A stretch of 64,000 bases of DNA from a virus: the IMG/VR virus record IMGVR_UViG_3300045988_166150, positions 32,001 to 96,000 of that record. One strand, written 5' to 3'. The position numbers and the translations under genes were made by a program. Below, piece after piece: positions 12,998-13,121 of the stretch. The notes below the pieces were generated by a model. It had not been told where the DNA came from and searched no databases. It saw only the letters and a program-made list of their open reading frames with translations. Position 1 is the first letter of the stretch. Each line of letters begins with the position of its first letter.

Positions 12998-13121
12998 TGG
13001 GTGGTAGCTCAATTGGCAGAGCAACGTAAATTTTCGTGTCTTGTATAAGACAATAGCAGCAATTTTTAAAGATAGCCTTGTAAGCCGTGTGTTGTTGGTT
13101 CGAATCCAACCCGCCCAACCA
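12998..13121 (+). tRNA. tRNA-Thr(UGU) gene interrupted by a 48-nt insertion (13027-13074) in the 5' strand of the anticodon stem
   Basis: Without 13027-13074 it folds canonically: TGGGTGG/CCGCCCA acceptor, GCTC-AATTGGCA-GAGC D arm, ACGGC-CTTGTAA-GCCGT anticodon arm, GTGTT variable loop, GTTGG-TTCGAAT-CCAAC T arm, then A-CCA. Confidence 0.7.

What the first reader, a model, noticed from the sequence alone, without database searches (positions are those of the whole stretch)
12998..13121. tRNA-Thr(UGU) with a 48-nt insertion at position 29/30 inside the anticodon stem
Every part of a canonical tRNA-Thr is present. The D arm and anticodon region resemble Firmicute tRNA-Thr (GTAGCTCAATTGG.AGAGCAAC...CTTGTAA). 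However, the 5' anticodon-stem strand is split as ACG / 48 nt / GC.

The insert (TAAATTTTCGTGTCTTGTATAAGACAATAGCAGCAATTTTTAAAGATA) is far too short for a group I intron, and I cannot draw a bulge-helix-bulge motif. It contains a 6-bp hairpin, TGTCTT-GTAT-AAGACA, whose loop region echoes the real anticodon loop. It also contains an AGCAGCAA..TTTAAAGAT motif related to the three hairpin modules just upstream.

Short, non-canonically placed tRNA insertions are known in archaea. To my knowledge they are not known in phages or bacteria. Possible readings are a new kind of tRNA intron, a permanent expansion that blocks host anticodon nucleases, a protein-binding (Ro-like) handle, or an inactivating insertion.
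Basis: partly seen in the sequence, partly recalled or inferred. Interest (0 to 1): 0.85.

Follow-up and report, generated by a model that had tools for sequence, protein, structure and literature searches.

The report
tRNA-shaped partner RNA of phage Ro60-like protein
The "tRNA-Thr with a 48-nt insert" is real, but the insert is most likely not an intron: it is a conserved module (short helix plus the motif ACAGCAA) that travels with a phage Ro60-like protein gene, which makes this RNA an unusual, tRNA-topology relative of the bacterial Y RNAs.

Summary
Window 12998-13121 (+) becomes a perfect 76-nt tRNA-Thr(UGU) with an encoded CCA once 13027-13074 is removed.

The intron reading is not supported.
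- The gene 45 nt downstream (13166-14590; Pfam DUF2828 + DUF7788) is predicted to fold like Ro60, a TROVE ring plus a vWA domain.
- The insert is one copy of a module made of a roughly 7-bp helix, about 2 nt, then (A/G)CAGCAA. Three free-standing copies lie just upstream (12758-12989).
- In 77 phage loci that encode homologues of this protein, ACAGCAA occurs 181 times on the gene strand and 25 times on the other strand.
- RNA-only pattern scans found about 150 further tRNA-embedded copies. Most have such a gene close by; every genome-contig copy with one shares its strand.
- The helices covary strongly.
- The "anticodon" changes even between near-identical relatives.
- Circularly permuted (YrlA-type) versions of the same three-way junction occur in Felix O1-like, mycobacterial and Bacillus phages.

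Best reading: the insert stays in the mature RNA and this is a tRNA-scaffolded, Y-RNA-like RNA. Binding to the protein and the biological role are inferred, not shown. It is a new variant of a known kind. Interest is moderate to high.

The parts
12710..12738 (+). Sigma-70-type promoter (TTGACA, 17 nt, TG-TATAAT) placed to drive the three free modules, the tRNA-like RNA and probably the downstream gene
   Evidence: 12 of 12 consensus match with an extended -10. No terminator-like site was found between it and the ORF. Use of this promoter is inferred.
12758..12851 (+). Free-standing module 1: terminal stem AAGCCTCT/AGAGGCTT with TACAGCAA directly 3' of the 5' strand
   Evidence: Sequence. Homologous modules with the same stem (AAGCCTC...GAGGCTT) occur in L018, L019 and L024.
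12862..12922 (+). Free-standing module 2: stem GCCAC/GTGGC, spacer GC, then ACAGCAA
   Evidence: Sequence; RCAGCAA match at 12869.
12934..12989 (+). Free-standing module 3: stem GGACAC/GTGTCC, spacer AT, then ACAGCAA
   Evidence: Sequence. Full-length but sub-threshold match to Rfam Dicty_Class_I_RNA (21.9 bits). The 14-nt string GACACATACAGCAA is identical to the tRNA-embedded module of L003.
12998..13026 (+). 5' part of the tRNA-like RNA: acceptor 5' strand, D arm, position 26, and the first 3 nt (ACG) of the anticodon stem
13027..13074 (+). The 48-nt 'insert', read here as an embedded Ro-like-associated module: U-rich linker, hairpin TGTCTT-GTAT-AAGACA (13037-13052), spacer, AGCAGCAA (13055-13062), A/U-rich linker
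   Evidence: A hairpin followed by the motif is present in 51 of 53 non-redundant homologues, with 48 distinct stem sequences. All 7 hairpin pairs covary.
13075..13121 (+). 3' part of the tRNA-like RNA: GC (completes the 5-bp anticodon stem), 7-nt loop CTTGTAA, GCCGT, variable loop, T arm, acceptor 3' strand, A73, CCA
13166..14590 (+). Ro60-like protein gene (DUF2828 + DUF7788; HEAT-repeat ring plus a vWA domain with an intact DxSxS MIDAS motif, DTSGS). RBS AAGGAG at 13152-13157
   Evidence: Pfam 2.5e-35 and 7e-21. PHROG 850 'RNA-binding protein' 2e-113. AF2 model pLDDT 81.5. The top 10 Foldseek PDB hits are all Ro60/TROVE structures. D285, S287 and S289 are invariant in alignment A2.
14592..14739 (+). 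Skipping-rope RNA directly after the stop codon (context: same RNA island)
   Evidence: Rfam RF02924, 45.9 bits against a gathering score of 36.7. It recurs in the islands of L001, L002, L003, L005, L009 and L015.

Best explanation
The 124-nt RNA is a tRNA-scaffolded, Y-RNA-like non-coding RNA. It is probably the RNA partner of the phage's Ro60-like protein, which is encoded 45 nt downstream.

Proposed mechanism:
1. It is probably transcribed from the consensus promoter at 12710-12738 as one precursor with three simpler modules and the protein's mRNA.
2. It is probably released like a tRNA: RNase P cuts at 12998, and the 3' end matures to the encoded CCA.
3. The 48 nt stay in the mature RNA. 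They branch from the 5' strand of the anticodon stem and form a three-way junction.
4. The three arms of that junction are the upper stem (ACG:CGT), the lower stem plus loop (GC-CUUGUAA-GC), and a 6-7-bp hairpin followed by single-stranded AUAGCAGCAA.
5. The helix plus (A/G)CAGCAA is the conserved unit and the likely binding site for the ring protein.
6. The tRNA body takes the place of the variable or 'effector' part of a Y RNA, as the tRNA-like domain does in YrlA. It also supplies processing signals and stability.
7. The likely arena is phage-host conflict over RNA or tRNA integrity.

What is shown: the anatomy, the conservation, the covariation, the gene linkage, the predicted Ro60-like fold of the protein, and the existence of permuted equivalents.

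What is inferred: expression and processing, retention of the insert, physical binding to the protein, and the biological role.
For: 1. The protein has a Ro60 fold. The AF2 model (pLDDT 81.5) has Ro60/TROVE structures as its ten best PDB matches (E 5e-9 to 3e-6, TM about 0.5-0.6 over about 550 columns), followed by vWA domains.

2. The module travels with the gene.
- In 77 IMG/VR loci with homologues down to 25% identity, ACAGCAA occurs 181 times on the gene strand and 25 times on the other.
- 69 of 82 loci have stem-plus-motif modules beside the gene.
- The same is seen in cultured phages: Staphylococcus 6ec, Fusobacterium Fnu1, Felixounavirus HY02, mycobacteriophage LeBron, Enterococcus H1, Listeria LMTA-57, Campylobacter CPX and Bacillus Thrax1.

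3. Every close relative has an interrupted tRNA-like gene at the same place.

4. Scans with an RNA-only pattern give an independent link to the gene.
- In viral contigs, 47 of 67 loci also hold the gene in the stretch held.
- In genome contigs, 42 of 62 loci hold it. All 45 RNAs there are on the same strand as the gene, at a median distance of 198 nt.

5. The structure is under selection.
- 51 of 53 non-redundant copies have a perfect hairpin ending about 2 nt before the motif, with 48 distinct stems.
- The split 5-bp anticodon stem is recovered in 46 of 53 copies, against 2.5% in permuted controls.
- On alignment A4, 95.8% of cells are paired, against 76% in shuffles and 35-46% in slid controls. 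The covariation score is 0.581 against 0.168, and 0 of 500 shuffles reach it.

6. It does not behave like a decoding tRNA.
- With an identical stem (ACG..GC/GCCGT), the loop is CTTGTAA in the window. It is CTGGTAA in the relative whose protein is 86% identical, and an 8-nt ATTTGGGA in the relative at 97%.
- Other copies with the same stem carry TTGGCAA, CATTTAA, ATTCTAA or ATTTGGA.
- The relatives at 65-68% protein identity have G-rich, non-canonical loops.

7. Circularly permuted RNAs carry the same junction. One example is L082 2782-2898: stem 5' strand, ACAGCAA, GC-CTTGTAA-GCCGT, T arm, closed acceptor hairpin, D arm, ACG, stem 3' strand. Others are HY02 5274-5399 and LeBron 4016-4137. The LeBron RNA matches Rfam YrlA at 39.8 bits.

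8. Precedent: YrlA RNAs next to Ro60 genes mimic tRNA, and the M. smegmatis one is cut by RNase P and receives CCA (PMC4201824). A Felixounavirus Ro60-like protein, Bas63 gp130, counters the Ppl defence, and its authors guessed that neighbouring 'tRNA genes' might be Y RNAs (PMC11482910).
Against: - No experiment here shows that the RNA is made, that the 48 nt are retained, or that it binds the protein.
- The motif differs from the known Ro60-binding elements: the bulged helix of animal Y RNAs and GNCGAAN0-1G of YrlA. Binding is therefore argued from linkage alone.
- The window copy gets no Rfam YrlA hit.
- In the 'split' class, to which the window copy belongs, the 7-nt loop keeps a canonical frame: U33 in 27 of 31, purine 37 in 31 of 31, A38 in 30 of 31. 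Removing the insert gives a flawless tRNA. Both facts are what an intron, or a working anticodon arm, would also predict.
- Bas63 gp130 protects against Ppl when expressed alone from a plasmid or from T7 (PMC11482910). At least that activity therefore does not need phage-encoded RNAs.
- That gp130 is the orthologue of the HY02 and window proteins is itself inferred from genus and gene position.
Confidence: 0.75

Rival explanations
1. A genuine, new kind of short tRNA intron. The 48 nt are excised, perhaps with the Ro-like protein holding the halves and the phage RNA ligase sealing them, to give a decoding tRNA-Thr(UGU).
For: - Removing the insert gives a perfect 76-nt tRNA with CCA.
- The split class keeps exactly 5 stem pairs and a 7-nt loop with U33, R37 and A38.
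- The window has no other tRNA-Thr.
- A DraRnl-type RNA ligase is encoded 4 kb downstream.
Against: - The triplet, and even the loop length, change between near-identical relatives that share the same stem.
- Orthologous RNAs in the nearest clade have non-canonical loops.
- Some copies carry GCU anticodons without the long arm of a tRNA-Ser.
- The same module occurs free-standing, and also in permuted RNAs that cannot be spliced into a tRNA.
- The insertion point varies: 28/29, 29/30 or 31/32.
- There is no bulge-helix-bulge motif (inspection) and no ribozyme or group I match.
Confidence: 0.08
2. A working, translating tRNA that keeps the expansion permanently, for example to escape host anticodon nucleases.
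For: A complete tRNA body, a canonical loop frame and an encoded CCA like the phage's ordinary tRNAs.
Against: - The anticodon is not conserved among orthologues.
- A 48-69-nt branch on the anticodon stem should clash with the ribosomal decoding site (established structural knowledge; not tested here).
- The permuted and free-standing forms point to a function that does not involve decoding.
Confidence: 0.06
3. The tRNA part is only a natural 'tRNA scaffold'. It gives RNase P/Z processing and nuclease resistance to the protein-binding module and has no partner of its own.
For: - Free modules lacking any tRNA part accompany the same gene everywhere.
- In Felix O1-like phages the modules are interspersed with tRNAs, which would release them by tRNA processing.
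Against: Tertiary-contact nucleotides, the exact 5-bp stem and the U33/R37/A38 loop frame are all conserved. Mimicry of the whole L-shape persists in the permuted forms too. That is more constraint than processing alone should need.
Confidence: 0.3
4. A dead tRNA gene, inactivated by insertion of a small repeat.
For: Default tRNA finders miss it.
Against: It is conserved at the same position across many divergent phages, with compensatory changes in every variable helix.
Confidence: 0.01

Closest known systems
YrlA / bacterial Y RNAs bound by Ro60 (Rsr) (Rfam RF02553; Chen et al. 2014, PMC4201824)
   Same: - Encoded beside a Ro60-type gene and on the same strand.
- Combines a protein-binding helix with a tRNA-like domain (D arm, T arm, acceptor).
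- Permuted relatives of the window RNA score on the YrlA model: LeBron 39.8 bits and Thrax1 37.5 bits.
   Different: - Topology is inverted. Here the RNA ends sit in a 7-bp acceptor stem with CCA and the protein-side helix is closed by a loop. In YrlA the ends form the Ro-binding helix and the acceptor is closed.
- A complete anticodon stem-loop is present.
- The conserved motif is (A/G)CAGCAA, not GNCGAAN0-1G.
- The partner protein is the divergent DUF2828 branch.
- The window copy gets no YrlA hit.
Animal Y RNA-Ro60 RNPs
   Same: A ring-shaped TROVE + vWA protein, with a small RNA made of a conserved helix and a variable remainder. The predicted fold matches 1yvr, 1yvp and 2i91.
   Different: No bulged-C helix, no pol III context, and a tRNA body instead of a loop. 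Sequence identity to Ro60 is only 11-15%.
tmRNA, including two-piece permuted tmRNA
   Same: A tRNA-like acceptor/T-arm module that carries a large functional insertion where the anticodon arm would be. Circular permutation of the gene occurs in some lineages (own knowledge).
   Different: No mRNA-like reading frame and no pseudoknots. The D arm and the anticodon loop are retained. There is no tmRNA model hit at this locus.
Archaeal non-canonical tRNA introns (bulge-helix-bulge type, for example at 29/30)
   Same: A short insertion inside the anticodon stem at a non-canonical position (own knowledge).
   Different: No bulge-helix-bulge can be drawn. Exon 2 (GCCT...) has no complement just after the 5' junction (inspection). 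No splicing endonuclease is known in this setting. The insert is a conserved module that also exists outside tRNAs.
Engineered 'tRNA scaffold' for recombinant RNA (Ponchon and Dardel 2007; own knowledge)
   Same: An RNA of interest is grafted into the anticodon arm of a tRNA so that it is processed and stabilised like a tRNA.
   Different: This one is natural. It also keeps the anticodon loop beside the graft.
Dictyostelium Class I RNAs (Rfam RF01414; PMC7919456)
   Same: - The free modules share the design: a short stem joining the 5' and 3' ends, the motif (CC)UUACAGCAA directly 3' of the 5' strand, and a variable rest, about 55-65 nt in all.
- The Rfam model aligns full length to phage modules in six places at 21.9-24.9 bits.
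   Different: All scores are below the gathering score of 41.5. The Class I promoter element and the eukaryotic setting are absent. Whether this is homology or convergence is unknown.

Membership tests
Canonical decoding tRNA | Cloverleaf with a 7-bp acceptor stem, D and T arms, and the universal tertiary-contact nucleotides | tested here: met
   U8, A14, G18, G19, A21, A15-U48, T54-T55-C56 and A58 are all present.
Canonical decoding tRNA | Contiguous 5-bp anticodon stem with a 7-nt loop in the gene, or an intron of a known, removable type | tested here: not met
   The 5' strand is split ACG / 48 nt / GC. Default ARAGORN and the Rfam tRNA model at gathering score miss it.
Canonical decoding tRNA | Anticodon conserved among orthologues | tested here: not met
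   UGU in the window. The relative at 86% protein identity has GGU. The relative at 97% has an 8-nt loop. The 65-68% clade has G-rich loops.
Group I intron in a tRNA gene | Roughly 200 nt or more with a P1-P9 core, inserted in the anticodon loop | tested here: not met
   The insert is 48 nt and lies in the stem. No Rfam intron or ribozyme hit at E up to 10.
Bulge-helix-bulge (archaeal/eukaryal) tRNA intron | Two 3-nt bulges separated by a 4-bp helix at the exon-intron junctions | tested here: not met
   By inspection, no complement to exon 2 follows the 5' junction. The junction position also varies among homologues.
Y RNA / YrlA class (Ro60-associated RNA) | Encoded within a few kb of a Ro60-type gene and on the same strand | tested here: met
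   It ends 45 nt upstream of the gene, on the same strand. The protein has a Ro60 fold. Linkage holds in 47 of 67 and 42 of 62 independently found loci.
Y RNA / YrlA class (Ro60-associated RNA) | A tRNA-like domain with D arm, T arm and acceptor | tested here: met
Y RNA / YrlA class (Ro60-associated RNA) | Ro-binding helix formed by the RNA's own 5' and 3' ends, with the conserved GNCGAAN0-1G or bulged-helix element | tested here: not met
   The ends lie in the acceptor stem, the helix is a closed hairpin, and the motif is AGCAGCAA. Permuted relatives do have the terminal helix, but with ACAGCAA.
Y RNA / YrlA class (Ro60-associated RNA) | Score at or above the Rfam RF02553 gathering score (69 bits) | tested here: not met
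   No hit in the window. Permuted relatives score 37.5-39.8 bits.
Y RNA / YrlA class (Ro60-associated RNA) | Physical association with the Ro60-type protein | not testable with these tools
   Needs immunoprecipitation or a gel-shift assay.
Ro60 / TROVE protein family (for the neighbouring gene) | HEAT-repeat ring followed by a vWA domain with a MIDAS motif | tested here: met
   The Foldseek top 10 hits are all Ro60/TROVE. DTSGS is invariant in A2. By sequence alone there is no PDB hit, and Pfam files it under DUF2828 and DUF7788.
Dictyostelium Class I RNA (for the free modules 12758-12989) | Terminal stem plus the 11-nt motif CCUUACAGCAA; score at or above the gathering score of 41.5 | tested here: inconclusive
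   Stem plus UACAGCAA is present. The model aligns full length but at only 21.9-24.9 bits in six places.

The most novel reading that the evidence does not exclude
The RNA is a chargeable tRNA-Thr-type mimic that serves as the bait arm of an anti-defence RNP.

- Its intact L-shape, its CCA end and its conserved loop frame (C/A-U-N-N-U-A-A, which from my own knowledge resembles the frame of ANN-reading, t6A-modified tRNAs) would be recognised by a host tRNA-directed enzyme. Candidates are an anticodon nuclease, ThrRS or a modification enzyme.
- The Ro60-like vWA protein docked on the helix-ACAGCAA branch would then capture or block that enzyme.
- The fast-changing 34-35 positions would reflect an arms race.

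A wider version of this reading: the same helix-plus-UACAGCAA code is read by eukaryotic DUF2828 proteins, which would make the Dictyostelium Class I RNAs Y-like RNAs.
Probability: 0.15. Interest if true: 0.9.

Novelty: new variant of a known kind. Interest (0 to 1): 0.65.

Why it matters
What the tRNA-like domain of bacterial Y RNAs does is still unknown. This locus matters for four reasons.

- **A large RNA class that is not yet catalogued.** It accompanies a phage Ro60-like protein found in 710 phage records, including Felix O1-like, KVP40, Listeria, Campylobacter, Staphylococcus and mycobacterial phages. It has a simple sequence signature: a helix, about 2 nt, then ACAGCAA. Nothing in Rfam covers it at gathering score.

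- **A native-topology form.** This version has real tRNA ends and a real anticodon arm. It is related to YrlA-type RNAs by circular permutation. That points to a tRNA(-Thr-like) origin for these RNAs. It also gives testable handles: RNase P cleavage, CCA addition, aminoacylation and anticodon-loop recognition.

- **A practical annotation problem.** These genes are missed by default tRNA finders or called as tRNAs with arbitrary anticodons. ARAGORN in intron mode calls homologues Lys, Pro, Ala, Glu, Ile, Phe, Gly and Thr.

- **A functional entry point.** One family member, Bas63 gp130, is reported to counter a bacterial defence system (PMC11482910).

Tried and rejected
- **Single-sequence AF2.** The model of the protein was useless (pLDDT 45). 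It was redone with a 35-sequence alignment.
- **Sequence-only PDB search.** It found nothing. Only the fold comparison showed Ro60.
- **First DNA pattern.** It was too strict and gave 0 hits in viral contigs. The looser pattern also picked up tandem tRNA pairs. Most were filtered out by requiring complementary acceptor ends. About 8 tandem identical tRNA duplicates, for example in Chromobacterium, passed that filter in the genome-contig scan and were discounted by eye.
- **Alignment A3.** MAFFT put position 26 out of register in more than half of the rows. It was therefore not used for pair counting. A one-subfamily alignment (A4) and parsing in scripts were used instead.
- **Intron families.** Rfam at E up to 10 shows no group I/II intron, no small ribozyme and no YrlA in 11500-16000. 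A bulge-helix-bulge motif was rejected by inspection.
- **Literature.**
  - 'DUF2828' returns only plant and tardigrade papers.
  - The supplement of Weinberg et al. 2017, which should say which protein skipping-rope RNAs accompany, is not held.
  - 'DDB_G0281243', a protein of unknown function pulled down with a Dictyostelium Class I RNA, appears in one preprint with no domain information.
- **Dictyostelium DUF2828.** I could not test whether Dictyostelium encodes a DUF2828 protein. The protein searches list only the best hits, and those are all phage-like.
- **'Hairpin loop echoes the anticodon'.** This idea was dropped, because the hairpin loops vary.
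Full report
**1. Observation.** Window 12998-13121 (+) contains every element of a tRNA.
- Acceptor stem: 7 bp with one G-U.
- D arm: GCTC-AATTGGCA-GAGC.
- T arm: GTTGG-TTCGAAT-CCAAC.
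- 3' end: A73 and an encoded CCA.
- Anticodon arm: the 5' strand is split as ACG, then 48 nt (13027-13074), then GC. The loop CTTGTAA and the strand GCCGT follow.

Deleting the 48 nt gives a 76-nt sequence that ARAGORN calls tRNA-Thr(tgt). With its intron option ARAGORN also calls the full 124 nt. In default mode it finds nothing there. The universal tertiary-contact nucleotides are all present (read). Rfam's tRNA model does not report the window copy at its gathering score. It does report the equally interrupted relatives full length at 47-56 bits.

**2. The neighbouring gene.** The RNA ends 45 nt before a 474-aa ORF (13166-14590).
- Pfam files the protein under DUF2828 and DUF7788.
- PHROGs calls it 'RNA-binding protein'.
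- Sequence search of the PDB finds nothing.
- A single-sequence model was poor.
- A model built on a 35-sequence alignment (pLDDT 81.5) has Ro60/TROVE structures as its ten best PDB matches. These include Xenopus and human Ro60, Deinococcus Rsr and the Thermus phage phiLo Ro60. E-values run from 5e-9 to 3e-6 and TM is about 0.5-0.6 over about 550 columns. vWA domains follow in the list.
- The MIDAS motif DTSGS is invariant.

The protein is therefore a divergent Ro60-like ring-plus-vWA protein. Homologues occur in 710 phage records. Among them are Felix O1-like phages, KVP40, and Listeria, Campylobacter, Enterococcus and Staphylococcus phages. The list also includes cluster-L mycobacteriophages, where the gene is already annotated 'Ro-like'.

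**3. What the insert is.** The insert consists of a U-rich linker, a hairpin (13037-13052), a spacer, AGCAGCAA (13055-13062) and an A/U-rich linker. Three free-standing units lie just upstream: 12758-12851, 12862-12922 and 12934-12989. In each, a terminal stem is followed directly by (U)ACAGCAA. All lie behind a perfect consensus promoter at 12710-12738.

This unit (helix, about 2 nt, then ACAGCAA) accompanies the Ro60-like gene very widely.
- In 77 IMG/VR loci with homologues down to 25% identity, the heptamer occurs 181 times on the gene strand and 25 times on the other. Most copies sit in arrays of 2-4 stem-flanked modules beside the gene.
- Unannotated modules also sit beside the gene in eight cultured phages. 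These are Staphylococcus phage 6ec, Fusobacterium phage Fnu1, Escherichia phage HY02 and mycobacteriophage LeBron. The others are Enterococcus phage H1, Listeria phage LMTA-57, Campylobacter phage CPX and Bacillus phage Thrax1.
- The free module 3 of the window and the tRNA-embedded module of locus L003 share the identical 14-mer GACACATACAGCAA.

**4. The interrupted tRNA is conserved with the gene.** Every related locus that reaches far enough upstream has a 123-145-nt interrupted tRNA-like gene ending about 30-200 nt before the Ro60-like ORF.

A scan of viral contigs with an RNA-only pattern was then run. The pattern was D arm, gap, CAGCA, gap, T arm, and hits were filtered for complementary acceptor ends.
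- Together with the loci already held, it gave 92 distinct and 53 non-redundant copies.
- 47 of the 67 loci found this way hold a DUF2828 homologue in the stretch held.

The same approach on bacterial genome assemblies gave these results.
- It found about 60 more copies, mostly in Lachnospiraceae and Oscillospiraceae, and including cultured isolates.
- 42 of 62 loci hold the gene.
- All 45 RNAs in those loci are on the gene's strand, at a median distance of 198 nt.

**5. Structure.**
- In 51 of 53 non-redundant copies a perfect hairpin ends about 2 nt before the motif. It is typically 7 bp with a 4-nt loop, and there are 48 different stem sequences. The mean hairpin score is 6.2, against 3.15 in shuffles.
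- A 5-bp anticodon stem can be assembled in 46 of 53 copies, from 2, 3 or 5 nt before the insert plus the remainder after it. The rate in permuted controls is 2.5%.
- On the one-subfamily alignment A4, RNAalifold recovers the acceptor stem, the D stem, the module hairpin, the 2-bp-plus-7-nt loop and the T arm.
- For the full three-way-junction structure on A4, 95.8% of cells pair, against 76% in shuffles and 35-46% in slid controls. Eighteen pairs show compensatory changes. The covariation score is 0.581 against 0.168, and 0 of 500 shuffles reach it.

The RNA is therefore a tRNA-shaped molecule with a conserved branch on the 5' strand of its anticodon stem.

**6. Intron or permanent part?**

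Against an intron or a decoding tRNA:
- With the same stem (ACG..GC/GCCGT), the loop is CTTGTAA in the window.
- The relative at 86% protein identity has CTGGTAA, and the relative at 97% has an 8-nt ATTTGGGA.
- Other copies with the same stem have TTGGCAA, CATTTAA, ATTCTAA or ATTTGGA.
- The clade at 65-68% protein identity has G-rich, non-canonical loops.
- Some copies carry GCU without a long variable arm.
- The insertion point varies.
- The module exists on its own (section 3).
- No bulge-helix-bulge, group I or ribozyme signature is present (inspection).

The strongest argument comes from circularly permuted RNAs that carry the very same junction. L082 2782-2898 reads: stem 5' strand, ACAGCAA, GC-CTTGTAA-GCCGT, variable loop, T arm, closed acceptor hairpin, D arm, ACG, stem 3' strand. 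HY02 5274-5399, LeBron 4016-4137 and many metagenomic loci are built the same way. Modules containing a T arm were found in 29 of the 82 loci. The LeBron and Thrax1 RNAs score 39.8 and 37.5 bits on Rfam YrlA. Such RNAs cannot be spliced into a tRNA. They are the known YrlA design, in which a Ro-binding helix and a tRNA-like domain are one molecule (PMC4201824).

In favour of something more than a handle: in the split class the loop frame is canonical. U33 is present in 27 of 31 copies, a purine at position 37 in 31 of 31, A38 in 30 of 31 and U36 in 19 of 31. NGU (Thr-type) triplets recur in distant lineages in both topologies. I read this as selection for a genuine anticodon-arm shape, and possibly for recognition by a tRNA-binding partner, rather than for decoding.

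**7. Mechanism proposed.** The RNA is probably co-transcribed with the free modules and the protein's mRNA (promoter; no terminator before the ORF). tRNA processing enzymes probably release it. The 124-nt RNA keeps its branch. The helix plus ACAGCAA docks the Ro60-like protein, and the tRNA body is the second, 'effector' half, as in YrlA. All four steps are inferred.

The context suggests RNA or tRNA damage and repair in phage-host conflict.
- The gene sits in or next to tRNA clusters.
- A DraRnl-type RNA ligase lies 4 kb downstream in the window.
- RtcB-type ligase and phosphoesterase genes lie near homologous loci.
- Bas63 gp130, a Felixounavirus Ro60-like protein located directly upstream of the tRNA genes, counters the Ppl defence (PMC11482910). 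That it is the orthologue of the HY02 and window proteins is inferred from genus and gene position.
- A caveat: gp130 works against Ppl when expressed without phage RNAs.

**8. Comparison and novelty.**
- It works like a Y RNA of the YrlA kind.
- As a family member it meets the linkage and tRNA-mimicry criteria.
- It fails the topology, motif and model-score criteria. It is therefore best called a new variant: native tRNA topology, a complete anticodon arm, a new motif, and the DUF2828 branch of Ro60-like proteins.
- I found no paper or Rfam family describing the ACAGCAA unit or tRNA-embedded forms. The PhageMaP preprint only guesses that some neighbouring tRNA genes may be Y RNAs.

**9. Side observation.** The free modules have the same design as Dictyostelium Class I RNAs: a terminal stem, then CCUUACAGCAA, then a variable rest (PMC7919456). 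Rfam's Class I model aligns full length to phage modules in six places at 21.9-24.9 bits. All six scores are below the gathering score of 41.5. DUF2828 proteins also exist in eukaryotes; the five papers that mention DUF2828 concern plants or a tardigrade. One of the four proteins pulled down with a Class I RNA, DDB_G0281243, has unknown function. I could not test the link.

Noticed in passing
window 12758-12989; L007 4957-5093; L008 3755-3810; L216 4884-4937; L219 2120-2175: The free stem-plus-UACAGCAA modules share their design and motif with Dictyostelium Class I RNAs (CCUUACAGCAA next to a terminal stem). Rfam RF01414 aligns full length to six phage modules at 21.9-24.9 bits, below its gathering score of 41.5. 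A protein of unknown function, DDB_G0281243, was pulled down with a Class I RNA. Whether it is a DUF2828 protein could not be checked.
   Followed up: partly
window 14592-14739: A skipping-rope RNA (Rfam RF02924, 45.9 bits) starts 2 nt after the stop codon of the Ro60-like gene. Skipping-rope RNAs recur in the same tRNA/ncRNA islands of L001, L002, L003, L005, L009 and L015. This raises the question of whether they are another partner of this protein.
   Followed up: partly
window 12474-12700: A second perfect consensus promoter (12474-12502) precedes about 180 nt with no convincing ORF and no Rfam hit. In the 86%-identity relative L009, a skipping-rope RNA (3343-3421) lies at roughly the equivalent distance upstream of the gene. 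The window segment (GAGTGGCGAAAAAGGTAGCCGCA...) may be a divergent copy.
   Followed up: no
window 15385-15638: A class II tRNA-like sequence with anticodon loop CTGTAAA (Rfam tRNA 37.8 bits, model positions 7-64 only). Its 3' acceptor strand AGCGCCC does not pair with the adjacent 5' sequence GCCTAGT. It does pair with GGGTGCT at 15485-15491, about 65 nt upstream. In L009 the adjacent strands pair normally. The 170 nt upstream (15385-15556) are more conserved between the window and L009 than the tRNA itself.
   Followed up: partly
window 17342-18457; L219 5305-6449; L218 1146-1520 and 4328-4972; L221 4556-5797: RNA-repair-type genes cluster near these islands. The window has a DraRnl-type RNA ligase (TIGR02306, 146.7 bits, just under its cutoff). 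Listeria phage LMTA-57 has a gene annotated 'tRNA-splicing ligase'. Enterococcus phage H1 and Bacillus phage Thrax1 have cyclic-phosphate-processing and phosphoesterase genes.
   Followed up: partly
L219 925-1476 (Listeria phage LMTA-57): A near-threshold ROOL RNA match (88.5 bits; gathering score 99.1) lies in an unannotated gap about 1 kb upstream of the Ro60-like gene.
   Followed up: no
split-class homologues, including window 13077-13083: The 7-nt loop consensus is C/A-U-N-N-U-A-A: positions 34-35 vary while U33, U36, A37 and A38 are kept. From my own knowledge this is the frame of ANN-reading tRNAs that receive t6A37. It is a possible clue to what recognises the anticodon arm.
   Followed up: no
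L009 1-2886 compared with window 9331-12040: In the 86%-identity relative, the anaerobic ribonucleotide reductase gene is called in pieces next to a LAGLIDADG-type ORF. An HNH/NUMOD endonuclease gene also sits between nrdG and the 137-aa ORF. The window has an uninterrupted 732-aa NrdD and no such insertions.
   Followed up: no
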